Positions 3,986 through 18,032 of a stretch of DNA of 64,000 bases are shown here, in pieces. Made by a program: the position numbers and the translations under genes. The first letter of the stretch is position 1. The number at the start of each line of letters is the position of its first letter. The stretch comes from a virus. The DNA lies in IMG/VR virus record IMGVR_UViG_3300027319_000002, positions 12,403 to 76,402 of that record; one strand, given 5' to 3'. The notes beneath the pieces are model-generated. The model saw nothing but the letters and a program-made list of their open reading frames with translations. It ran no database searches and was not told where the DNA came from.

Positions 3986-4064
3986 ATCTGCCTCCTCTAC
4001 CCTTTGCTGGAACCAGCATAGCTCGTTCCAACAGTTGAAGAGAACTAGTTGTCCCAAACGTTAT

Positions 4065-4118
4065 TGACCGGTAGTTTGGCGGCGCAAGCCCCGGCCTTCA
4101 GGCCGGGGAGCACGTCAA
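4065..4118 (+). mobile_element. IS200/IS605 single-hairpin mini-element
   Basis: TTAT (4061-4064), then AAGCCCCGGCC-TTCA-GGCCGGGGAGCAC-GTCAA; same hairpin loop and GTCAA end as the TnpB element right end. Confidence 0.65.
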
Positions 4119-4144
4119 TAGACCCCGCGCGAGGAGCGGCCGGA

Positions 4145-4513
4145 ATGCCGCCTGATTCAACGGAGGAATACCCGTTGTACACCGCTCTCGTTTATCCCGC
4201 TCCTGATGAGATCGCATGGTCCGAGATGGTCGAGGTCTGGGATACCCGGGCCAACGTTTTGATCATCAACGACGGTGAGGTCCGGGATCATCCAGAGGTT
4301 CCACTGCCCGATGTCAGCTTGGATGAGGTGCTCGACCGCCTCGGCTATCGGCGTACAGGCCCCTGGCAGCGGGAGGATGACCGACCGGACGAGGACCTGC
4401 GGATCGCGAACATGATCCGCAGCGCGTCCGGCACGATCCTGCACGCTCTGCACAAGATGTGCATTGTGTACATCTTGCTCATGTTGTACACTCTGGTATG
4501 TGACAAGCGCTGA
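4145..4513 (+). CDS. hypothetical protein (C-terminus runs through the next promoter, possibly degenerate)
   Basis: GAGGAG RBS; first ~85 codons coding-like. Confidence 0.5.
   Translation: MPPDSTEEYPLYTALVYPAPDEIAWSEMVEVWDTRANVLIINDGEVRDHPEVPLPDVSLDEVLDRLGYRRTGPWQREDDRPDEDLRIANMIRSASGTILHALHKMCIVYILLMLYTLVCDKR
4453..4492 (+). promoter_or_regulatory. sigma70-type promoter with operator palindrome; leaderless start at 4500
   Basis: TTGTGT(4464)-N17-TACACT(4487); CAAGATGT-N9-ACATCTTG inverted repeat around the -35; GTG 7 nt after the -10. Confidence 0.6.
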
Positions 4514-5153
4514 GGGGTACGAGAAGGCGCTGGCCATCCGGCTTGAGCAGCTTGCACAGAAGCTGGAGAAGCTCGGCGTTACCGGCCACACGACCATTCC
4601 GGCCGGACGGTCCCCCGGCCCACTGGAGGATCAGCCAGAAAGGAATCGGGCCGTGAAGCTGGAAGACGTTCTGACGGAAATCGGTATCAAGTACAAGGAG
4701 GTCATCACGCGCAATCTGCGCGTGGAGAACCCGCTTCTCTGGATCATGTTCCGCGCCGCGGACGAGCTGTGGGTCCTTAAGGGCGTTGCCGCCGAGTACA
4801 CCACCGTCTGGCACGACCACGACGTTCTGAGCCCGGGAGACCCTACGTTCACCGTGACTGCCGAGTCATCGGACGGCCGCAAGGTGCAGACCTTCCAGCC
4901 GCACGAGCTCCCTGGCGACGTCAGGGCGCACATCAAGGACTGGCTGTGGGAGACCCGGCCTGTGAGGCTCGGGGACGCGCTGCGCGCGCCGATCAAGGAT
5001 AAGCTCGAGGCCGAGCGGGAAAAGGTTGCGCAGCTGGAGCGGGAGCGTGAGCGTCTCGTGACCACGATCGCGAGGCTGCGCGGCATGATCCACGCGCTTG
5101 AGGCGGAGAACGACAGCCTTAAGAGGCAGCTTCCCGCGGCCGAGGTTGCCTGA
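4500..5153 (+). CDS. hypothetical protein with C-terminal coiled coil
   Basis: Long coding-like ORF; start inferred from promoter position. Confidence 0.7.
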   Translation: MTSAEGYEKALAIRLEQLAQKLEKLGVTGHTTIPAGRSPGPLEDQPERNRAVKLEDVLTEIGIKYKEVITRNLRVENPLLWIMFRAADELWVLKGVAAEYTTVWHDHDVLSPGDPTFTVTAESSDGRKVQTFQPHELPGDVRAHIKDWLWETRPVRLGDALRAPIKDKLEAEREKVAQLERERERLVTTIARLRGMIHALEAENDSLKRQLPAAEVA

Positions 5154-5235
5154 CCTTCTTGTCCGGCTGGGCGGGCCCGGTCCGCCCGGCTCACTGGAAG
5201 GCCAGGTCAAAATGAGCATTCTGTATACTGTGCGC

Positions 5236-5424
5236 ATGAGTGATGATCAGCGGGAAGTCGGACTGACTGAGGCGCGGCACAAGATCGGTACCATGGTCGC
5301 CCAGGCCGAGCATGCCGGGCGAATCACCTTCCTCACACGCAACGGCAGGCATGTGGCGGCCGTGGTCCCCCTGTGGGTGGTGGAGCAGGCCTTGAACGCG
5401 AAACGGGCCCAGGAGGGCCGCTGA
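5236..5424 (+). CDS. Phd/YefM-family antitoxin-like protein
   Basis: VGLTEARHKIGTMVAQAEHAGRITFLTRNGRHVAAVVP matches the Phd/YefM fold consensus; TATACT at 5224 implies a leaderless ATG. Confidence 0.8.
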   Translation: MSDDQREVGLTEARHKIGTMVAQAEHAGRITFLTRNGRHVAAVVPLWVVEQALNAKRAQEGR

Positions 5425-6065: not shown

Positions 6066-7343
6066 CTAGACGGCTTCGTTGATGGTCACCTGGACGCCGA
6101 GGGCGGTCAGCTCTGCCAGCAGGTCCTGGATCCGGGATTCGCGGTCCTTGGTGGCCTGTGCCGACGTGCCGTAGGTGAGGTAGTCCTGGGCGACGGCGGC
6201 GGCGCGGGCCCAGGCGGGCGGGATGGACTTGATGTAGGTCTTGTAGGTGGTCTGCACCGACTTGTGGCCCAGCATCTTCGACACAGTGGCCACGTCCACC
6301 TTCTGGACCATGTAGGTGGCGAAGGCGTGCCGGAAATTGTGAGCGGTGATGGCCTTGTCTTCCAAACCGGCTCGGATAACCGCCTTCTTCAGCTCACGGT
6401 CGAAGCTGCTGTTGTTGACCGGCAGGTCCGGAATCACATCCGAGGGGAAGAGGACCCCATTTGGGGGAATGTTGTAGGTCTCGATGTGGCGCTCAAGCTC
6501 CTCTCGTAAGAGGTTGCTGAGCGGAACGTGACGTCCCTCTCCTTCCTCAAAGTACTTCAGCGGTCCCCAGGACCCACTGTGGGTCCACTGGCGGTAGATC
6601 CACAAGCTGTCTTCCAGGATGCAATCCCGGCTGAAGCCGAGCATCTCACCCTCGCGCAGCCCGGCCCCGGCCATCAGGTAGATGGCGACGCGGAAGAAGG
6701 GATTGATGCAGTCCGCGATCTTGTGAATCTCTTCCACGGAGGGGATGTAGCGATCCGCGGTCGGAACCTTGCGCGTCTTCTGGCGATCGGCCGGGTTGTC
6801 TGCCCGCCAGCCGTCTTCTACGGCCTGACGGAAGATCGGGCCCAGGACGAACTTGATGAGGGTCTTGACCGTACCCTCATAAACGCCCTTCTCGTACATC
6901 TCGGTCTTCAGCCGCTCGATGTCGATCTTGGTGATCTTGTTGATCGGCTTGTCACCGAATGCGGGGAAGGCGTACGTCCGGAGGGCCGACATGTACTGCC
7001 TCCGGCTGTTGGGCCGAAGCTCCTCCTTACCGTCTAGCCACTGATTGGCGTATTGCTCGAAGGTCGGCATGTCGCCCTCAGGTGACACCACAGGCATGCC
7101 CTGGCGCTTCAGGCGCTCCTGGTAGTTGGCAGCCAGGAACCTTTCCATGTCCTGCTTGGTCAGGAACACCTTGTGGCGCTGCTTGCCTGTGATGGCATCG
7201 TAGAAGCGGGCCTCGATCTTGCAGTCGCAGCGTCGCTGATCCTTGTGCGTGCAGCTGCTGACTCGGCGCCACGATCCGAGCCCGCGGCCGAGGTTGAACC
7301 ACTTTGAGGCCCCGTTCGACTTTGAGGACCTGCTCGCGCCCAT
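6066..7343 (-). CDS. int: tyrosine integrase
   Basis: Catalytic set GLREGE (R), HNFRH (HxxR), LGH and YKTY (Y); SAM-like N-domain. Confidence 0.92.
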   Translation of the reverse strand: MGASRSSKSNGASKWFNLGRGLGSWRRVSSCTHKDQRRCDCKIEARFYDAITGKQRHKVFLTKQDMERFLAANYQERLKRQGMPVVSPEGDMPTFEQYANQWLDGKEELRPNSRRQYMSALRTYAFPAFGDKPINKITKIDIERLKTEMYEKGVYEGTVKTLIKFVLGPIFRQAVEDGWRADNPADRQKTRKVPTADRYIPSVEEIHKIADCINPFFRVAIYLMAGAGLREGEMLGFSRDCILEDSLWIYRQWTHSGSWGPLKYFEEGEGRHVPLSNLLREELERHIETYNIPPNGVLFPSDVIPDLPVNNSSFDRELKKAVIRAGLEDKAITAHNFRHAFATYMVQKVDVATVSKMLGHKSVQTTYKTYIKSIPPAWARAAAVAQDYLTYGTSAQATKDRESRIQDLLAELTALGVQVTINEAV

Positions 7344-7696: not shown

Positions 7697-8767
7697 GTGT
7701 TGCGTCCTCGCTTACCTACGCTCGTGGTGGCCACCGTGGGCGTGATCGCCCCGGCGACGCTCCTCATCTCGGTGTCGGTCAACATCCGGCACCTGTACCA
7801 CCTTGGCGAGGAGATCGGATACGAATGGCTGGCGTGGACCATGCCTGTTGCCGTCGTGACCTATGAGATGGTCTCCTCGCTTGTCTACTTCATGAGCCCG
7901 CCGGAGTTCCGCGACATCCGCCGCTCCGCGCTCATCGGTGCCGTCCTCGGTTGGGTGGCCACCAACGCGCTTGGCGCCCTGTCGCAGGCACTGGAGGATC
8001 GGGCGATCTTCATCACCCTGACGTACAAGATCCTCCTCGTGCCGGTGCCGTCCGCGATCGCCGCGCTCTTCCTCCACATGCTCGCGCTCGTGGTGCGCGC
8101 CGTCCGTGCTGCCAAGGAGTGGCAGCACGCTGCCGCAGCAGCGGTCTCGCTCGCGGCAGCGGAGGCTGACAGCATCCCGGCGGCAGCACCGGAAGCGGCG
8201 GACAGTGGCAGCACCCCGGAAACGCTGCCGAAAGCGGCAGCGGTCTCGCTGGCGGCAGCGGAGAAACCGGCAGCAGCAGGCAACGGCAGCATCCCGGCGG
8301 CGCCGCAGACGGCAGCGGACAGTGGCAGCATCATCTCGGCAGCAGACGGCGGCAGCGTTTCGGTGGTAGCGGACAGTGGCAGCAGCACCCCGGCAGTATC
8401 CTCGGCCGCGGACAGTGGCAGCGCCGAGGAGCGGCAGCAGGACGGTGCGGCCGTGTTGCCGTTCGTGCAGGATCCGGCAGCGCGCCGGAGGCATCGGCAG
8501 CAGAGATCGAGCCTGCCGCGCGTGGCCGAGGAGCACGTGCAGAAGGTGCTGCCGTACCTGAGGGAGGTACAGAAGGACAACGGCGACATCTACGCCGTGC
8601 GGGCCACGGATGTGGAGCACCTCTTCTCTGAGGCGAGCATCCGCACGGTCCGGGCGGCGCTGCAGGTTGCCCGGCAGCGTCTTGAGGATGAGCGGCAGCG
8701 GGCTGCCGCCGAGGACAGTGGCAGCGCCGAGGAGCGGCAGCAGGACGGTGCGGCAGCAGTCGTGTAG
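7697..8767 (+). CDS. DUF2637/Spd-like polytopic membrane protein with Ala/Ser-rich repeat linker
   Basis: Four N-terminal TM helices, repeated AADSGS motifs, AGGAGG RBS; family assignment from recollection of actinomycete element proteins. Confidence 0.65.
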   Translation: MLRPRLPTLVVATVGVIAPATLLISVSVNIRHLYHLGEEIGYEWLAWTMPVAVVTYEMVSSLVYFMSPPEFRDIRRSALIGAVLGWVATNALGALSQALEDRAIFITLTYKILLVPVPSAIAALFLHMLALVVRAVRAAKEWQHAAAAAVSLAAAEADSIPAAAPEAADSGSTPETLPKAAAVSLAAAEKPAAAGNGSIPAAPQTAADSGSIISAADGGSVSVVADSGSSTPAVSSAADSGSAEERQQDGAAVLPFVQDPAARRRHRQQRSSLPRVAEEHVQKVLPYLREVQKDNGDIYAVRATDVEHLFSEASIRTVRAALQVARQRLEDERQRAAAEDSGSAEERQQDGAAAVV

Positions 8768-9679: not shown

Positions 9680-9712
9680 CATACCCTCGAATTGGTGGAT
9701 TCGGGGGTACGG

Positions 9713-11293
9713 ATGACGGACGAGAACATCGATTACGACGAGAACACCCAACTGACAGCTGAGGCCATCGACGGAGATTCTGCTATCGACGAGCTGGAAA
9801 TCCGGCTCGACGAGGTCACCAAGAAGACGGTCGACATGATCGTCGACAAGCTATTAATCGTCGTCGACGAGCTTTCCGGCCACCCGCTTTATCCCTACCA
9901 GAGGCCATTTGCGCGCCGGATCATCGAGTCCCTGGTTCTTGGTGACGGCGCGACGCTGACGGCACTATTCAGCCGTCAGGCGGGTAAGTCCGAGACAGTG
10001 GCCAACACCGTGGCCGCCTGCATGATTATGCTGCCTGCCCTGGCCAAGGTCTTCCCCTACCTGCTCGGCAAGTACAAGGAAGGGCTCTGGGTCGGCGCCT
10101 TCGCCCCCGTGGATGATCAGGCCGATAACCTGTATGGCCGTATCGTCTCCAGATTGACCTCTGAGCGGGCTCTAGAGCTTATGCAGGATCCTGATATCCA
10201 GGATGGGGTAAGGGCCCGCGGAAGGACGCTCACGCTTCATTCTGGGTCCCTTGTACGGCGCCAGACCTGTCACCCCCGGGCGATCATCGAGGGCCGGACC
10301 TATCACCTGATACTCATCGACGAGTGCCAGGGCGCCGACGACCGGATGGTTACCAAGTCCATCATCCCGATGGGCGCGGCGACCAACGCCACCTACGTCT
10401 TCACCGGAACGCCGACCTACACCAAGAACATCTTCTACCGGCAGATCCAGAAGAACAAGCGCAATCAGGTCCGGCGCGGCAAGCGGCAGCTGCACTTTGA
10501 GGCCGACTACCGGGAGGCGTCCAAGGCCAACCCGCTCTACCGGCTGCACTGTGAGAAGCAGAAGGAGGTGCTCGGCGAGGACAGTGACGAGTTCAAGCTG
10601 AGCTACCGCCTGATGTGGCTGCTCGAGCAGGGAATGTTCACCACCAGCGAGCGTCTGAACGCGCTCGGCGACAAGAGCATGCAGACGGTGAAGGCCTGGT
10701 ACCGTTCGCCCGTCGTGGTCGGCATCGACCCGGCCCGCAAGCAGGATTCCACCGTGGTCACCGTGGTGTGGGTCGACTGGGACCACCCCGACGAATTCGG
10801 GCTCTACGAGCACCGCATCTTGAACTGGCTGGAGCTGGGCGGCGGCATGTCCTGGGAGACCCAGTACCACCGCATCGTCGAGTTCCTCAGCAACTACTAC
10901 ATCCACGCCATCGGCATCGACACCGGCGGCGTGGGGGACGCGGTCGCCGACCGGCTCAAGGTCCTGATGCCCAACACCGAGATCGTCGAGCTGGGCAGCC
11001 AGCGGCCGGACCAGTCCAAGCGGTGGAAGCACCTGTATCAGCTCATCGACCGCGGAAAGATCATCTGGCCAGCGCACGCCAAGACCCGCTCCACCAAGGT
11101 CTACGAACGGTTCATCCAGCAAATGAGCGACTTGGAGCTGGAATACGTCGGGCCCTACATGCTGGCCAAGGCGCCCAATGAGGCCCACGCTCACGACGAC
11201 TTCCCGGACAGCTTGTCGATGGCCTGTATCTTGACCTCCGAGGACTATCACATGAAGGAGGTCGAGCAGAGCATCTCTCCATTCTATTCCTGA
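9713..11293 (+). CDS. terL: terminase large subunit
   Basis: Walker A SRQAGKS, Walker B ILIDECQ, nuclease GIDPA...DST and HDDFPDS. Confidence 0.93.
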   Translation: MTDENIDYDENTQLTAEAIDGDSAIDELEIRLDEVTKKTVDMIVDKLLIVVDELSGHPLYPYQRPFARRIIESLVLGDGATLTALFSRQAGKSETVANTVAACMIMLPALAKVFPYLLGKYKEGLWVGAFAPVDDQADNLYGRIVSRLTSERALELMQDPDIQDGVRARGRTLTLHSGSLVRRQTCHPRAIIEGRTYHLILIDECQGADDRMVTKSIIPMGAATNATYVFTGTPTYTKNIFYRQIQKNKRNQVRRGKRQLHFEADYREASKANPLYRLHCEKQKEVLGEDSDEFKLSYRLMWLLEQGMFTTSERLNALGDKSMQTVKAWYRSPVVVGIDPARKQDSTVVTVVWVDWDHPDEFGLYEHRILNWLELGGGMSWETQYHRIVEFLSNYYIHAIGIDTGGVGDAVADRLKVLMPNTEIVELGSQRPDQSKRWKHLYQLIDRGKIIWPAHAKTRSTKVYERFIQQMSDLELEYVGPYMLAKAPNEAHAHDDFPDSLSMACILTSEDYHMKEVEQSISPFYS

Positions 11294-11342: not shown

Positions 11343-11768
11343 ATGGCCTACTCTCCCACGAATTCCTCCCCGCTCGCCCCGGCGCCGCAGTACCCGGAGC
11401 GCATTTCGCCGGTGTACGAGGCGAAAATCGCGCCGAACGCTCCTGGTGGTAGAGGCCCGCTGCGTTTCCAGGAGGGTCTGGGTACTGACAGCGATGTGCC
11501 GCGCGAGTTCACCACCGGCATCATGCAGGGCTACATGACCGCGCCCGGCCGCACCAACCGGAATGCCGCGGTGTGGATTAAGCGCCCAGAGGAGACTCTT
11601 CAAGAGCGTGCTCACCCCGGCTCTTCCTCCTGGGTCATGGCGCCGACTTTCCTTGGCGAGTTCGCCTATGGCGCCCAGAGCGGTAACCGCGGTATGCCGG
11701 TTTATGAGACTGTGGTCCGGTCCGGAGGGTACTACACCCGCATGAACCCGGCCTACATCGACGACTGA
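11343..11768 (+). CDS. probable virion protein between terminase and portal
   Basis: GAAGGA RBS, synteny, coding-like composition. Confidence 0.7.
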   Translation: MAYSPTNSSPLAPAPQYPERISPVYEAKIAPNAPGGRGPLRFQEGLGTDSDVPREFTTGIMQGYMTAPGRTNRNAAVWIKRPEETLQERAHPGSSSWVMAPTFLGEFAYGAQSGNRGMPVYETVVRSGGYYTRMNPAYIDD

Positions 11769-11770
11769 TG

Positions 11771-11840
11771 TGCTATACTGCAAAGCTCGGATGAGCTGAG
11801 TCGTTCAGAAGGCCCCGGCCAAGTGCCGGGGCCTTCTTTC
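11771..11840 (+). ncRNA. candidate ~55-nt small RNA (extended -10 promoter plus terminator)
   Basis: TGcTATACT at 11771-11779; 12-bp stem 11808-11836 plus TTTC; no ORF in between. Confidence 0.4.
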
Positions 11841-11958
11841 ATGGACAGCCCAACTCTGAGGGTCTGGCATTATCATTCCACAGCTCCACACATCTACCCT
11901 GAAATGTGTAATGCCGGATGCGTCCGCTGACGTTGGCATTGAGGGGAGGTGATAGAGG

Positions 11959-13720
11959 ATGAGCATCGCGTTCTATCCGCCCGCTCAGCGATACGCCGGG
12001 GCCGATCTCGCAGTTACGATCAGCCCGCTAGGCCTCGTTGAGCTGGCGGATGAATTACGCCTCATCACCTCCTGAAGAGTTTGAAGTCCACGGGCCACGG
12101 CTCAACCGGTATGCGGTCAACTGGGCCTTCTATTTAGGCCACCACTACGCCTATCGGCGAGAGCCGGGCGAGCCGCAGCTGACCTTCAATTACTGCCGTG
12201 CTCTGGTCGACTTCCTCATCAATTTCTGCTATGGGCGCGGTGTCACTTTCCAATCGGCTAAAGAATACTCCCATATCGTCCCGGCCCTTTTGAACCGGGT
12301 GTGGGAGATGGATAACAACAAGCAGCAGATCATCCGCGAAATCGCTCAGCAGGGCGGTGTGTCCGGCGACATGTTCGTGAAAGTCGCCTACGATCCCGCC
12401 TGGACCGATCCAGCTGGCAACTACCACCCCGGACGGGTGCGAATCCTGCCTCTGAACAGCGCATATGTCTTCCCGGAGTGGCATCCACACGACCGGGAGA
12501 GGATGATCCGCTGTAAGATCAAGTACAAATTCTGGTCGACCACCCTCGAGGGTACTCGCTCGGTATTTACCTATACCGAGATCCTCACCGATGACACCAT
12601 CGAGGAGTACCTCAACGACGACCTGATCGACCGGCGCCCCAACCCGTTGGGCACCATTCCCATCGCTCACGCGCCGAACATCTCCGTATCCGGTTCCCCG
12701 TGGGGCCTGGCCGACATTCACGACCTGATTCCGCTCAATAGGCAGTACAACGAGACTGCTACCGAGATCGCGGACATTATCAACTACCATGCCGCCCCGG
12801 TCACCATCATCACCGGCGCCAAGGCGTCCAACCTGGAAAAGGGCCCCCGGAAGGTCTGGGGAGGCTTGCCGAAGGACGCCCAGGTCTACAATCTCGAAAA
12901 CGGCGTCGATCTGACCGGGCCCCTGGCCTTCCTCCAGCTGCTCAAGCGGGCCATGCACGAGCTTGCCGGTGTGCCGGAAACGGCGCTGGGGCAGGTTCAG
13001 CCGATTTCCAACACCTCCGGCGTGGCCCTTTCCATCGAGTGGCTGCCTGCCACGAACAAGCGCGCGGCGAAGCTCATTAACATGTCCGCTCTGCTGCAGC
13101 GGGTGAATGAGCTTGCCCTGCGGACGCTGTTTCTCTATGAGCCCGAGGCTTTGCGGTACAACCCCGATACCGACGGGATCATCGAAGAGGGCCAGCCCCT
13201 GGAAATCGACCCCAGGGATCCTCTTGTGTACCGCACCGAGTGCGTCTGGCCGGATGCCCTTCCGACGGATGCGCTGGTCAAGCTTAACGAGATTCAGGCG
13301 AAGATGGCCCTCGGCCTCGAATCCAAGCGAGGCGCTCTCCGGGAACTCGGTGTTGAATTCCCGGACGAGAAGATGGAGGAGATCTTCCGCGAACTCGTTA
13401 AGGACGCAAAGGAGCAGGGTGCGCTTGACATTATCAATGCGTACATCTCTGCTGCCATAATGCAGTTGACAGGGATGAACCCGGACGGTTCACCCCCGGA
13501 TCAACCCAACGCAGCACGCCCGCAAGACAGTAGCACTAACTCGAATCCCGCGGGTCAAGAAGCGTCGAGCGACCGGAGCACTAAACCGCGTGCTAATCCC
13601 ATCAAGAACGAGCTGACGCAGATGCTCGGCGCGGAAGCAGACCAAATCGCAGCAGATTTGGTGACACAGGCGTTTGGCACGAAGTTGCCACAGCGCCGAA
13701 ATCCGGACGCCGACCTTTAA
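11959..13720 (+). CDS. portal protein, interrupted by a 22-nt coding gap (12055-12076)
   Basis: Perfect GGAGGTGAT SD and ATG 11959 (MSIAFYPP...LGLVELADE), stop at 12073; the portal-like frame resumes EFEVHGPRLNRY; position between terL and scaffold/capsid. Confidence 0.88.
12052..12079 (+). other. candidate translational bypass site (take-off GAA, A-site UUA, landing GAA, resume GAG)
   Basis: GAA(12052)-TTA(12055)...TGA(12073)/GAA(12074); a hop of 22 nt rejoins the frames. Confidence 0.65.
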
Positions 13721-13736
13721 CAGGAGATGTGACCCT

Positions 13737-14609
13737 GTGAAGACCCGTGATTTCAAGCCTGGTGACGTAATCGGTTACCTGCGCAGCGGCCGTCCGATCC
13801 GGCTGATCGGCGGTGGATCGGCGGACGCGCTTCCCGAGGGCTGGCAGAACCAGGTGACTGCCCCGGCCGCCCAGATCCCGGTGCAGGCTCCGGCTGACAT
13901 GCCACCCATGGCGTCTCCGGCTCCCCAGCCCACCACTGGACGCCTCTTCACCGAGGAGGACGTCGAGCGCTTCCGCCGTCAGGAGCGCGACAAGTATTAC
14001 CGGGAGCTGGAACGGTACAAGTCAGAAGTCAGTGAGCTGAGCAAGAAGCTTGCCGCGTGGGAGGAAGAGAGGGAGAAGGCGAGGCGCGAGGCTGAGGAGG
14101 CTGCTCGGCGCGCTGCCGAGAAGGAGATGAGTGCCAAAGAGCTGATCGAGGCTCGGCAGCGTGAGTGGGAGGAGCGTTTCCGCAAGCTGGAGCAGGAGCG
14201 TGAGGCCGAGCGGGCTGCTTTGGAGAAGGAGCGGCGGTTTGCCGCTCTCCAGGCTTACATCCAGCGGCGGGCCCGTGAGGAGCAGCTGAACGAGACCGTC
14301 GCGCCTGAGCTGATTCCCCTCATCACTGGTAATTCCGAGGACGAGGTCGAGGAGTGCATTCAGCGGCTCCGGCAGGCGACCGAGTCCATCACCCAGAACG
14401 TGCAGGCGGCTATGGCCAATCAGACCCCGCCTGCGCCCCCGCGCGGTGTAAGCCCGGCCGGTTACACCGCAACCGGGCCCATGGATGACTCGGCGCAGCA
14501 GCAGCTCACGCCGGAAGCAATCAAGAACATGTCCATGGCTGAGTACGCAAAGATTCGGCCTCTTCTCGGACTCGACGCTCAGCCCAGAAATCGCGGTCTC
14601 TTTGGCTGA
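13737..14609 (+). CDS. capsid scaffolding protein
   Basis: IGYLRSGRPIRLIGGG motif, long coiled coil, directly upstream of the capsid gene. Confidence 0.85.
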   Translation: MKTRDFKPGDVIGYLRSGRPIRLIGGGSADALPEGWQNQVTAPAAQIPVQAPADMPPMASPAPQPTTGRLFTEEDVERFRRQERDKYYRELERYKSEVSELSKKLAAWEEEREKARREAEEAARRAAEKEMSAKELIEARQREWEERFRKLEQEREAERAALEKERRFAALQAYIQRRAREEQLNETVAPELIPLITGNSEDEVEECIQRLRQATESITQNVQAAMANQTPPAPPRGVSPAGYTATGPMDDSAQQQLTPEAIKNMSMAEYAKIRPLLGLDAQPRNRGLFG

Positions 14610-17148: not shown

Positions 17149-17222
17149 GGTGTAGCGGCCTCCAGTTCCTGGTGGGAGGAGTATCCTACCACTTTTTACC
17201 CACTGGCACCGACAATTTAACT

Positions 17223-18032
17223 ATGGCCGATCTGCAGACGATCCTTAAGCGTGTTCGGTCGGCGATCGGCGACCTCGGCGAGAAGATCCGGCTCACCCTT
17301 CCCGGGGGCAAGGACTACTACGAAACCGGTTACCCGCGGATCACCGACGTCGTCGTGTCCAAGGTCGAGGACTCCACGATCACCGACCTGGTGGAGGGGG
17401 TCGACTACACCCTGGACGCGATGAAGGGGACAGTGACGCTGACTGAGCCCCTGCCGCCGACGGCGACGCTGCTGGTGACTGCAACGGCGTACGCGCTTTT
17501 CGACGATGAGGAGCTGACCTGGTACATCGAGGACGCCGTCCGCCGTCACACCCACGATCGGGAGACCTCCCAGCGAGTCCGGACCGAAAACGGCTTCATC
17601 AAAGTCGTCCGGGAACCGATCACCCTGGAGAACCTCCCAGAGATCGAAATAGAGCCACTCGTCGTGCTGTCCACCATCGAAGTGTTGTACGCGATGCTCA
17701 CCGATGCGGCCAGCGACGTCGACGTGGTCACCGCCGAGGGAACCCACCTTTTCCGCAGCCAGCGGTACAACCAGCTGCTGAACCTGATCACGGTCCTCAA
17801 GCAACGCTATGACGAGTTCTGCCAGGCGCTCAACATTGGCCTGAACCGGATCCAGGTCACCACCTTGCGTCGGGTGTCGCTTACCACCGGCCGTCTCGTG
17901 CCGGTCTTCGCCCCGCGGGAGTACGACGAGTACTCGCCGACCGGGCCGCGGCGCCTGCTGCCGCCCGTTGACGCGCCGGATGAGGACCCGAGCGGTCTGC
18001 CGAGCCCGATTTGGGGCGGGTGGGGCCCGTGA
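17223..18032 (+). CDS. head-to-tail adaptor
   Basis: FDDEEL..YI and SQRYNQL motifs, synteny. Confidence 0.7.
   Translation: MADLQTILKRVRSAIGDLGEKIRLTLPGGKDYYETGYPRITDVVVSKVEDSTITDLVEGVDYTLDAMKGTVTLTEPLPPTATLLVTATAYALFDDEELTWYIEDAVRRHTHDRETSQRVRTENGFIKVVREPITLENLPEIEIEPLVVLSTIEVLYAMLTDAASDVDVVTAEGTHLFRSQRYNQLLNLITVLKQRYDEFCQALNIGLNRIQVTTLRRVSLTTGRLVPVFAPREYDEYSPTGPRRLLPPVDAPDEDPSGLPSPIWGGWGP

What the first reader, a model, noticed from the sequence alone, without database searches (positions are those of the whole stretch)
11959..12100. Portal gene appears to need a 22-nt ribosomal bypass triggered at a rare UUA codon
Seen: a perfect SD and ATG 11959 encode MSIAFYPP...SPLGLVELADE, then GAA-TTA-CGC-CTC-ATC-ACC-TCC-TGA. 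The portal frame continues from a second GAA (12074) 22 nt downstream, overlapping the stop. Take-off and landing on matched GAA codons give ...LVELADE-EFEVHGPRLNRY, which by my recollection is the uninterrupted N-terminus of related actinophage portals. Established: matched-codon bypassing in T4 gene 60, and UUA (bldA tRNA)-linked bypassing proposed for Streptomyces phage genes such as the phiHau3 terminase. Inference: head assembly is gated by host tRNA-Leu(UAA) supply, i.e. host developmental state, here in a portal gene and with a Glu take-off codon. Alternative: initiation at ATG 12050, giving a portal lacking 31 residues.
Basis: partly seen in the sequence, partly recalled or inferred. 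Interest (0 to 1): 0.9.

Follow-up and report, generated by a model that had tools for sequence, protein, structure and literature searches.

The report
Ribosome hop inside phage portal gene
A temperate high-GC actinomycete phage has 22 extra bases, starting with the very rare codon TTA, inside its essential portal gene; relatives indicate that ribosomes must jump over them, and about twenty differently built versions of the same trick occur in related prophages.

Summary
ATG 11959, behind a strong ribosome-binding site, opens a 38-codon frame ending at TGA 12073. The portal body runs in the +1 frame to 13720.

About 100 homologous portals read ...SPLGLVELADEEFEVHGPRLNRY... without a break. 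DNA alignment shows a clean 22-nt insertion here, identical in every copy of this phage. Contigs from four further studies hold it without an indel.

The design fits a translational hop:
- take-off GAA (12052) and rare TTA in the A site;
- a 19-nt gap with no Glu-like triplet;
- landing on the first cognate GAA (12074) and resumption at GAG.

Homologous portals of Streptomyces, Kitasatospora, Actinomadura, Nonomuraea and metagenomic loci hold 21 further distinct inserts at nine sites. Most follow the same grammar: a rare codon (TTA, AGA, ATA) or a stop, then a cognate landing codon. Interrupted genes sharing inserts keep dN/dS near 0.05.

I read it as a new member of the phiHau3-type UUA-triggered bypass, here in a portal gene with a longer gap (confidence about 0.7). 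No protein or RNA evidence exists.

Gating by host development is untested. It is weakened by an in-frame TTA 20 codons downstream of the resume codon that must be decoded. This scan has noted portal TTA hops before on other DNA.

The parts
11943..11953 (+). Ribosome-binding site GGGGAGGTGAT of the portal gene
   Evidence: Sequence. The same GGAGGTGAT motif precedes the start in relatives L008 and L009.
11959..12054 (+). Portal codons 1-32, MSIAFYPP...LVELADE, the first coding segment
   Evidence: Collinear with residues 1-32 of uninterrupted homologues (25 of 32 identical to P0005). pN is 0.17-0.25 against pS 0.52-0.74, similar to the next 130 codons.
12052..12054 (+). Take-off codon GAA (Glu32)
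   Evidence: Last codon collinear with homologues before the insert.
12055..12057 (+). TTA, a rare Leu codon in the A site at take-off
   Evidence: TTA makes up 24 of 27,029 codons and 24 of 2,239 Leu codons in this phage's ORFs. Of the 22 family inserts, 17 start with TTA.
12055..12073 (+). Coding gap of 19 nt (TTACGCCTCATCACCTCCT), not represented in homologous proteins
   Evidence: Alignment A1. The sequence is unique in the 93-kb genome. It has one G and no GA dinucleotide, so no Glu-like triplet precedes the landing site.
12060..12073 (+). Anti-Shine-Dalgarno-like stretch CCTCATCACCTCCT, complementary to the gene's own ribosome-binding site (11944-11958)
   Evidence: The minimum-energy fold pairs 11944-11958 with 12060-12073. 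The duplex is -24.6 kcal/mol, reached by 1.1% of shuffled gaps. Function is unknown.
12073..12075 (+). Zero-frame stop TGA; ends the 38-residue product of ribosomes that decode TTA
12074..12076 (+). Landing codon GAA, matched to the take-off codon, 22 nt downstream
   Evidence: First cognate triplet in any frame after take-off. It overlaps the TGA stop.
12077..13720 (+). Portal body from the resume codon GAG (EFEVHGPRLNRY...) to the stop
   Evidence: Open frame. PF05133 SPP1_portal. 60-80% identity to more than 100 portals over 98% of its length.
12050..12052 (+). ATG in the portal frame; the rival start that gene callers use (product MNYASSPP...)
   Evidence: P0003 and P0042 are called from it. 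No usable Shine-Dalgarno sequence lies upstream.
12134..12136 (+). In-frame TTA encoding the invariant Leu of FYLGHH, which must be decoded normally
   Evidence: The Leu column is invariant in alignment A2 (L52). Relatives use CTT, CTC or CTG there.
9692..11293 (+). Large terminase subunit gene (context; uninterrupted, with one in-frame TTA)
   Evidence: PF17289 Terminase_6C. TTA at about codon 55.
6066..7343 (-). Tyrosine integrase (context; the phage is temperate)
   Evidence: PF00589, PF22022 and PF14659.

Best explanation
The portal gene carries a programmed translational bypass, or hop. The steps below are inferred from the sequence design and from comparison; none is shown by protein or RNA data.

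1. Ribosomes start at AUG 11959 and translate 32 codons.
2. They pause with peptidyl-tRNA-Glu on GAA (12052-12054) and the rare Leu codon UUA (12055-12057) in the A site.
3. In a fraction of ribosomes the peptidyl-tRNA lets go of GAA.
4. The mRNA slides 22 nt. The 19-nt gap is G-poor and has no Glu-like triplet.
5. The tRNA re-pairs with the first cognate triplet, GAA 12074-12076, which overlaps the zero-frame stop UGA.
6. Decoding resumes at GAG 12077. This gives a portal of about 579 residues, collinear with its relatives (...LVELADE-EFEVHGPR...).

Ribosomes that decode UUA make a 38-residue peptide and stop. The hop therefore sets how much portal is made. In principle this makes portal yield depend inversely on how fast UUA is decoded. 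Portal is needed at only 12 copies per head; that figure is from general knowledge of tailed phages.

Three things are shown here: the insertion, its design, and the comparative pattern together with purifying selection.
For: 1. Homologues are contiguous across the junction and the motif is nearly invariant, so 7 extra or 31 missing residues are unlikely to be tolerated.

2. The insert has every design feature of a hop: zero-frame TTA directly after the last collinear codon, matched GAA/GAA, landing on the first cognate triplet, and a nearby zero-frame stop.

3. There are 22 distinct inserts at nine sites of this portal family.
- Seventeen start with TTA, two with AGA, one with ATA and two with TAG.
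- Sixteen end with a codon read by the same tRNA as the take-off codon. In 15 of these it is the first such triplet.
- Four more end with a 2-of-3 match.
- Hop lengths run from 4 to 25 nt and include an in-frame 6-nt case.

4. Interruptions cluster early. Twenty of the 22 lie within about the first 55 codons, and the remaining ~520 codons stay open. L020 has three inserts and then 527 open codons.

5. Interrupted genes that share inserts are under purifying selection.
- L020 and L031: dS 0.74, dN/dS 0.05.
- L018 and L019: dN/dS 0.04.

6. In a sample of 401 genomes of the genus of G001 (the genome holding L018, Streptomyces mangrovi), 6 of 8 portal copies of this family are interrupted. Two lie in complete chromosomes.

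7. The 22 nt are fixed in this phage across at least five studies.

8. The phage otherwise looks intact: integrase, terminase, and long open structural ORFs.

9. There is precedent. UUA-led 7- and 10-nt gaps in the phiHau3, StrepC.1 and S. catenulae terminase genes have a junction peptide found by mass spectrometry in E. coli and full-length product in Streptomyces (PMC10732093).
Against: - There is no protein, ribosome-profiling or RNA evidence for this phage. All support is comparative.
- The host is unknown, so the rarity of its tRNA-Leu(UAA) is inferred only from the phage's own codon use.
- The hop distance of 22 nt is more than twice that of the terminase gaps.
- The gap lacks the Shine-Dalgarno-like element that helps landing in T4 gene 60. 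It holds the opposite, an anti-Shine-Dalgarno-like sequence.
- Only a weak 4-bp local hairpin surrounds the take-off site.
- An ATG (12050) and a TTG (12038) exist in the portal frame, so a truncated portal cannot be excluded for this phage.
- The in-frame TTA at 12134 and about 24 TTA codons elsewhere show that UUA is read normally in this phage. This limits how long ribosomes pause.
- All copies with the 22-nt insert are at least 99.4% identical, so this particular insert has no evolutionary depth of its own.
- Two family inserts, TTAGC in L029 and L031 and TAGC in L066, do not fit the matched-landing rule.
Confidence: 0.7

Rival explanations
1. Split expression. Ribosomes finish the 38-codon ORF at UGA 12073. 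The portal is made separately from AUG 12050 or UUG 12038, by weak direct initiation or by termination-reinitiation with backward scanning. The product lacks the 31 conserved N-terminal residues, possibly with the small peptide acting in trans.
For: Start codons exist in the portal frame 23 and 35 nt upstream of the stop. Gene callers use them. The window's Asp codon is GAT where relatives have GAC, and this creates the ATG. The monomer model gives low confidence to residues 1-39, so they may not be part of the core fold.
Against: - No usable Shine-Dalgarno sequence precedes 12050.
- The missing segment is nearly invariant in about 100 homologues, and in this phage it has evolved as slowly as the rest of the protein.
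- The same grammar occurs at codons ~55 and ~175 of relatives, and as an in-frame 6-nt insert. Reinitiation cannot rescue the protein there.
- This rival does not explain why the insert starts with TTA and ends with a copy of the take-off codon.
Confidence: 0.12
2. The gene is broken. The insertion is a frameshift mutation in a defective or helper-dependent prophage, seen in many samples only because its bacterial host is widespread.
For: All copies are nearly identical. The phage has an integrase. A rearranged variant truncating the portal at 13049 circulates in several assemblies. There are no expression data.
Against: - A random 22-nt insert would rarely begin with in-frame TTA and end with the take-off codon; I estimate about 1 in 10,000.
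- There is no second lesion in the 547 downstream codons or in the other long ORFs.
- Across the family the inserts obey one grammar and the genes stay under purifying selection.
Confidence: 0.08
3. A +1 ribosomal frameshift somewhere in the 12038-12075 overlap, for example at UCC-UGA as in prfB. The portal would carry seven extra residues (LRLITS plus E) inside the conserved motif.
For: The downstream frame is +1. A zero-frame stop (UGA A) sits exactly where the frames must join.
Against: - No slippery site is present. tRNA-Ser on UCC cannot re-pair with CCU, nor tRNA-Glu on GAA with AAU (sequence).
- There is no Shine-Dalgarno-like stimulator upstream of the stop; the sequence there is the opposite.
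- Seven extra residues would fall inside a nearly invariant motif.
- Family inserts of 6, 8, 14 and 25 nt cannot all be +1 shifts.
Confidence: 0.05
4. The gap is mainly a cis-regulatory RNA element. Its anti-Shine-Dalgarno-like core pairs with the portal ribosome-binding site about 100 nt upstream and throttles initiation. Any bypass is then only the means of tolerating the element.
For: A helix of 14 pairs between 11944-11958 and 12060-12073 appears in both the minimum-energy and centroid folds. The region's z-score is -3.1. The duplex is -24.6 kcal/mol, p about 0.011 against shuffled gaps.
Against: - Any C/U-rich gap pairs fairly well with a purine-rich ribosome-binding site; the shuffle mean is -17 kcal/mol.
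- Most of the family's gaps are only 1-7 nt, too short to carry such an element.
- This idea does not remove the need for a recoding event.
Confidence: 0.05

Closest known systems
UUA-mediated translational bypassing in the large terminase gene of Streptomyces phage phiHau3, prophage StrepC.1 and an S. catenulae prophage (Smith et al. 2013, cited in PMC10732093; Antonov et al. 2023, PMC10732093)
   Same: A short frame-disrupting insert in an essential virion-morphogenesis gene of a temperate actinophage. UUA sits at the 5' end of the insert, directly after the last collinear codon. The flanks are adjacent in homologues, the junction is highly conserved, and a zero-frame stop follows soon after. 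Only the hop yields functional product.
   Different: The gene is the portal, not the terminase. The hop distance is 22 nt (19-nt gap) against 7-10 nt. The phage lineage differs: BRock-like portal, 93-kb genome from compost, sludge and manure, host unknown, and not R4-like. This phage uses UUA in frame elsewhere, whereas Streptomyces phages are said usually to lack it. No internal Shine-Dalgarno-like signal is present. In the portal family the same grammar also uses AGA, ATA and UAG.
Phage T4 gene 60 50-nt bypass and its MobA-associated homologues (bioRxiv 10.1101/2022.08.31.505936; 10.1101/2024.12.09.627546)
   Same: Matched take-off and landing codons, a poorly decoded A-site codon at take-off, retention of peptidyl-tRNA, and landing at the first accessible cognate codon. 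One product is made from two out-of-frame ORFs.
   Different: The gap is 19 nt rather than 47. There is no take-off stem-loop of comparable strength, no Shine-Dalgarno-like element 6 nt before landing, no homing-endonuclease or mobile-element context in this window, and no sequence homology. A nascent-peptide signal is unknown.
Low-level bypassing at 'hungry' codons in E. coli (Gallant and Lindsley; refs 47-52 of PMC10732093; from my own knowledge beyond that citation)
   Same: A starved A-site codon lets peptidyl-tRNA slide to a matching codon some tens of nucleotides downstream without elaborate signals. The family's simple rule (take-off codon, rare codon, short gap, codon read by the same tRNA) fits this minimal mechanism.
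   Different: Those events are experimental, rare and not used for gene expression. Here the hop is needed to make an essential protein and is maintained by selection.
Mitochondrial 'byp' elements of Magnusiomyces capitatus (mentioned in PMC10732093)
   Same: Many short bypassed inserts scattered through protein-coding genes, with matching take-off and landing codons.
   Different: Those are eukaryotic mitochondrial, mobile GC-rich elements (about 27-55 nt, from my own knowledge). The portal inserts are mostly 4-10 nt, start with a rare codon, and show no sign of mobility.
prfB-type programmed +1 frameshifting
   Same: A zero-frame stop lies at the frame junction, and the downstream frame is +1.
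   Different: There is no slippery P-site codon and no upstream Shine-Dalgarno-like stimulator. It would add seven residues inside an invariant motif.

Membership tests
UUA-triggered translational bypass of actinophage morphogenesis genes (phiHau3 type) | Short insert that disrupts the frame, with flanks adjacent in homologues | tested here: met
   A clean 22-nt insertion against L003, L006 and L007. About 100 homologues are contiguous.
UUA-triggered translational bypass of actinophage morphogenesis genes (phiHau3 type) | UUA in the zero frame at the 5' end of the insert | tested here: met
   GAA(12052) TTA(12055). TTA is 0.09% of the phage's codons.
UUA-triggered translational bypass of actinophage morphogenesis genes (phiHau3 type) | Junction residues so conserved that added residues (frameshifting) are unlikely | tested here: met
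   P23, G25, L26, E28, L29, D31, E33, G38, P39 and R40 are invariant in A2. The motif is near-identical in about 100 proteins.
UUA-triggered translational bypass of actinophage morphogenesis genes (phiHau3 type) | Landing codon that can re-pair with the take-off peptidyl-tRNA | tested here: met
   GAA 12074 equals the take-off GAA and is the first cognate triplet in any frame.
UUA-triggered translational bypass of actinophage morphogenesis genes (phiHau3 type) | Host in which tRNA-Leu(UAA) is limiting or developmentally controlled (bldA) | not testable with these tools
   The host is unknown. The nearest named prophage portals are in Microbispora and Nonomuraea. The phage has no tRNA genes. 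In-frame TTA codons argue that UUA is decodable.
UUA-triggered translational bypass of actinophage morphogenesis genes (phiHau3 type) | Full-length product or junction peptide observed | not testable with these tools
   No RNA holder is listed and there are no proteomic data.
UUA-triggered translational bypass of actinophage morphogenesis genes (phiHau3 type) | Proposed stimulators: internal Shine-Dalgarno-like sequence and local mRNA structure bringing the landing site close | tested here: inconclusive
   There is no Shine-Dalgarno-like sequence in the gap; it is anti-Shine-Dalgarno-like. A 4-bp hairpin (12046-12049 with 12058-12061, -6.4 kcal/mol) encloses GAA-UUA. A long-range helix joins the gap to the ribosome-binding site.
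T4 gene 60-type bypass cassette | Matched take-off and landing codons with a stop or hungry codon after take-off | tested here: met
   GAA/GAA with UUA.
T4 gene 60-type bypass cassette | Gap of about 50 nt with a take-off stem-loop and a Shine-Dalgarno-like element 6 nt 5' of landing | tested here: not met
   The gap is 19 nt, has no GAG or GGAGG element, and only a weak hairpin is present.
T4 gene 60-type bypass cassette | Part of a mobile element with a homing endonuclease (MobA) | tested here: not met
   No endonuclease gene lies next to the portal start. The neighbouring ORF 11343..11768 has no Pfam hit. The insert is unique in the genome.
Programmed +1 frameshift (prfB-like) | Slippery P-site codon able to re-pair in the +1 frame, plus an upstream Shine-Dalgarno-like stimulator | tested here: not met
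   For UCC-UGA-A, UCC shifted +1 gives CCU, which does not re-pair. The upstream sequence is CACCUCC, the complement of a Shine-Dalgarno sequence.
SPP1-type portal protein (PF05133) | Match to the family profile above the gathering score | tested here: met
   88.2 bits against a cut-off of 25.5, covering profile positions 11-414 of 416.

The most novel reading that the evidence does not exclude
The N-terminal region of this widespread actinophage portal family may be a natural hot spot of independently evolved ribosome-hop cassettes.
- At least 22 distinct inserts lie at nine sites, with hops of 4-25 nt.
- They are triggered by several slow codons (UUA, AGA, AUA) or by UAG.
- They are present in most copies found in the sampled genomes of the Streptomyces mangrovi genus.
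- They are kept under purifying selection.

If so, hopping would be a selected and common way for temperate actinophages to tie portal supply, and with it the start of head assembly, to the host's tRNA state. It would not be limited to three terminase genes.

In the window's phage the unusually long gap may serve a second purpose as an anti-ribosome-binding-site element.
Probability: 0.5. Interest if true: 0.85.

Novelty: new member of a known kind. Interest (0 to 1): 0.7.

Why it matters
Translational bypassing is one of the rarest ways of reading a gene. The well-studied cases are T4 gene 60 and its relatives. The UUA-triggered form rested on three terminase genes out of 100 surveyed (PMC10732093).

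A portal-gene case with a 22-nt hop extends both the gene range and the distance. The homologous portals found here give about twenty natural variants of one design. They differ in trigger codon, gap length, exact or wobble or near-cognate landing, an in-frame case, and double and triple hops. From these, rules for take-off and landing can be read off and tested with reporters.

There is a practical point for annotation. These portals are routinely called as truncated proteins, for example MNYASS..., MEFEVHG... and MNRY....

Biologically, the hop puts the first step of head assembly under the control of decoding speed at a rare codon. Whether this senses host development remains to be shown.

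Tried and rejected
- Megablast of 11800-13800 against GenBank phages gave no match. A protein search found only uninterrupted portals of about 60% identity in BRock, Alone3, LuckySocke, GiJojo and pSt2308.
- The 22-nt insert and its 11-nt core occur nowhere else in the 93-kb genome, so it is not a repeated or mobile element here.
- My GC3-based scan of the whole genome for other frame switches at rare codons was far too noisy and needed 40 open upstream codons. It gave no usable result. Other genes of this phage were therefore not properly tested for hops.
- dN/dS of the 32 upstream codons: synonymous sites are saturated (pS 0.52-0.74). It shows only that the segment is as constrained as the rest of the protein over the whole lineage, not since the insertion.
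- AlphaFold2 monomer model of the uninterrupted homologue P0005: mean pLDDT 64, residues 1-39 below 50. It says nothing about the structural role of the N-terminus. No fold search was run.
- Two dN/dS rows involving L117 are invalid because the locus was on the wrong strand. They are disregarded.
- No RNA holder is listed among public runs. Only assembled contigs could be laid, so no read-level or expression information was obtained.
- Smith et al. 2013 is not in the held library. Its content is cited through PMC10732093.
- Searches for closer relatives carrying a diverged copy of the same insert found only near-identical copies of this phage.
- I considered and rejected a small intron or DNA-level excision. 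An element of 4-25 nt is far too short for self-splicing, and no contig lacks the insert.
Full report
**What is in the sequence**

- A strong ribosome-binding site, GGGGAGGTGAT (11943-11953), precedes ATG 11959.
- The frame reads MSIAFYPPAQRYAGADLAVTISPLGLVELADE. It continues GAA(12052) TTA CGC CTC ATC ACC TCC and stops at TGA 12073-12075.
- A second GAA at 12074-12076 overlaps that stop. It lies in the +1 frame, which stays open to 13720.
- That frame encodes an SPP1-type portal (PF05133, E 7.6e-25).

The window lies in a virus record of 92,984 bp with 64% G+C. The record has a tyrosine integrase (6066-7343, minus strand), a large terminase (9692-11293) and long open structural ORFs. It is therefore a temperate tailed phage. 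Its portal is about 60% identical to those of Streptomyces phages BRock, Alone3, LuckySocke, GiJojo and pSt2308. It is 74-80% identical to prophage portals of Microbispora and Nonomuraea.

**Is it an insertion, and is it real?**

More than 100 homologues of about 570 residues begin MSIAF..SPLGLVELADEEFEVHGPRLNRY without a break, and this motif is nearly invariant.

A DNA alignment with three uninterrupted relatives shows one clean 22-nt insertion and nothing else.

The insert is letter-identical in seven other assemblies of the same phage, all at least 99.4% identical. Contigs from four further studies cover it with no indel; they are compost, sludge, manure, and one of 2025 whose source is not on record. 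So it is not an assembly error. This particular insert, however, has no evolutionary depth of its own.

**The design**

The last codon collinear with homologues is GAA. The next zero-frame codon is TTA, which accounts for 24 of 27,029 codons in the phage's ORFs.

The 19-nt gap, TTACGCCTCATCACCTCCT, contains one G and no GA dinucleotide. The first triplet in any frame that tRNA-Glu could re-pair with is therefore GAA 12074. Resuming at GAG 12077 gives ...LVELADE-EFEVHGPR..., exactly the family sequence.

I estimate that a random insert would begin with in-frame TTA and end with a copy of the preceding codon about 1 time in 10,000.

**The comparative result that carries most weight**

I looked at homologues whose called proteins start late. 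I also examined 27 genome loci and 80 IMG/VR loci, a genus-wide genome search, and three further look-ups. Together these gave 22 distinct inserts at nine sites of this portal family (table).

At the same ADE|E site, written as take-off[gap]landing:
- GAA[TTACCTC]GAT in L008
- GAG[TTAC]GTG in L009
- GAG[TTACC]GAG in L018 and L019
- GAG[TTACC]GGG in L028
- GAG[TTAT]GAG in L029
- GAG[TTAA]GAG in L117

One codon later:
- GAG[TAGCTCCGCTT]GAG in L023, Streptomyces rimosus
- GAG[AGACCCGCCGGTC]GAG in L022

At other sites:
- CTT[TTAC]CTC and CTT[TTAA]CTC
- GAA[TTACC]GAA and GAA[TTACC]GAC
- CGA[AGACC]CGC, CGA[TTAT]CGA, and the in-frame CGA[TTA]CGT
- TAC[T]TAT
- TTT[ATAGG]TTC
- CAC[TTAC]CAC
- at codon ~175, CGA[22 nt]CGC

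The counts across the 22 inserts are as follows.
- Seventeen start with TTA, two with AGA, one with ATA and two with TAG.
- Sixteen end with a codon read by the same tRNA as the take-off codon. In 15 of these it is the first such triplet downstream.
- Four end with a two-of-three match.
- Two do not fit: TTAGC in L029 and L031, and TAGC in L066.

Some genes carry two or three inserts and then 400-530 open codons.

In 401 genomes of the genus of G001 (the genome that holds L018, Streptomyces mangrovi), eight copies of this portal were found and six are interrupted. Two of these lie in complete chromosomes.

Interrupted genes that share inserts by descent are under strong purifying selection.
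- L020 and L031: dS 0.74, dN/dS 0.05.
- L018 and L019: dN/dS 0.04.
- L020 and L123: dN/dS 0.08.

This pattern cannot come from gene decay. Reinitiation cannot explain it either, because some sites lie at codons 55 and 175 and one insert is in frame.

**Mechanism proposed**

Ribosomes initiate at 11959 and pause with peptidyl-tRNA-Glu on GAA and UUA in the A site. A fraction uncouple, slide 22 nt, re-pair at GAA 12074 and continue. The rest decode UUA and end at UGA, having made a 38-residue peptide.

Three things are shown: the insertion, the grammar, and the selection on relatives. The hop itself and its efficiency are inferred.

It works like the UUA-led gaps of the phiHau3, StrepC.1 and S. 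catenulae terminase genes. For those, a junction peptide was found in E. coli and full-length product in Streptomyces (PMC10732093). It also resembles low-level bypassing at hungry codons. It shares the matched-codon logic of T4 gene 60 but not that cassette's parts.

**An odd feature**

The core of the gap, CCTCATCACCTCC, is close to an inverted copy of the gene's own ribosome-binding site. By my own knowledge it resembles the 3' end of 16S rRNA; that was not tested here.

The fold of 11930-12110 pairs 11944-11958 with 12060-12073. The duplex energy is -24.6 kcal/mol, reached by 1.1% of shuffled gaps.

It could throttle initiation, or it could act after the gap has left the ribosome. I could not test either idea. 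Most of the family's other gaps are too short to carry such an element.

**What is not supported**

The idea that head assembly is gated by host developmental state is only an analogy with the phiHau3 model.
- The host is unknown.
- The phage has no tRNA genes.
- The same gene has an in-frame TTA at 12134-12136 for the invariant Leu of FYLGHH.
- The terminase and about 20 other ORFs also contain TTA.
UUA must therefore be decoded during late expression.

A simpler role is also possible. The hop may merely keep portal output low relative to capsid protein.

**Rivals**
- Reinitiation at 12050 or 12038 giving a truncated portal: 0.12.
- A defective gene: 0.08.
- A +1 frameshift adding seven residues: 0.05.
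- A mainly regulatory RNA element: 0.05.

**Earlier notes of this scan**

Three AI notes on other genomes describe TTA-led hops in portal and terminase genes of other actinophages. They agree with what I found independently. I do not count them as evidence.

I found no paper describing portal-gene hops in the held library.

**Verdict**

The bypass reading is well supported by comparison (confidence about 0.7). The developmental gating is untested and weakened.

This is a new member of a known but very rare kind. The portal family behind it is a rich natural series of variants.

Noticed in passing
window 13049 (portal codon ~352); L002:1854-2423, L144, L147, L161: In at least four assemblies the portal homology stops at window 13049. 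It then joins about 440 nt of unrelated sequence, followed by genome 10994-11119 and 12263 onward (upstream DNA). This yields a chimeric 635-residue ORF (P0042). It looks like a circulating rearranged or mini-circular derivative of the phage rather than a one-off chimera.
   Followed up: partly
L121:5165-6667 (-), i.e. genome 5165-6667, left of the window: A 500-residue TnpB / IS605 OrfB protein (Cas12f1-like TNB, OrfB_IS605 and HTH domains) sits in the same virus record. A PASTA-domain protein lies at L121:7891-8610 (-). The left end of the record may be host DNA or a second mobile element.
   Followed up: no
L020:1575-1700 and L031:1501-1700: An in-frame 6-nt insert, CGA[TTA]CGT, lies within HGPR|LTRY. 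Normal decoding adds Leu-Arg, and a hop gives the family sequence. The same gene could therefore make two protein forms depending on UUA decoding.
   Followed up: partly
L029:2005-2060, L031 (same site, portal codon ~175), L066:1600-1640: The inserts CGA[TTAGC]CTG, shared by two divergent prophages, and CGA[TAGC]TTG have no cognate landing triplet at the position that would restore the family sequence. Either landing occurs at a later CGC with loss of three residues, or another mechanism acts.
   Followed up: partly
L013:1575-1680 (Actinomadura atramentaria), L022:1450-1510, L027:1630-1690: Hop-like inserts begin not with TTA but with the other rare codons AGA and ATA. Each has a landing codon read by the same tRNA: CGA..CGC, GAG..GAG, TTT..TTC. 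The trigger seems to be any slow codon.
   Followed up: partly
L006:2382-2744: The Microbispora prophage with the closest named portal (80% identity, uninterrupted at the junction) has an Endonuclease_7 (homing-endonuclease-like) gene inserted just upstream of the portal gene. Its portal is annotated from an internal GTG.
   Followed up: no
window 17172-18032, 7697-8767, 4049-4513, 5098-5424: Several ORFs have TTA within their first 4-15 codons as called from the longest start. These may only be over-extended starts. They were not checked for hop-like inserts.
   Followed up: no
L028:2010-2075: The 25-nt hop at portal codon ~175 of a Kitasatospora prophage has a gap that contains its own hairpin (CCCC-TC-GGGG). 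It also has a Shine-Dalgarno-like GGGGTGAT 5 nt before the landing CGC. This is the gene-60-like signal that the window's gap lacks.
   Followed up: no
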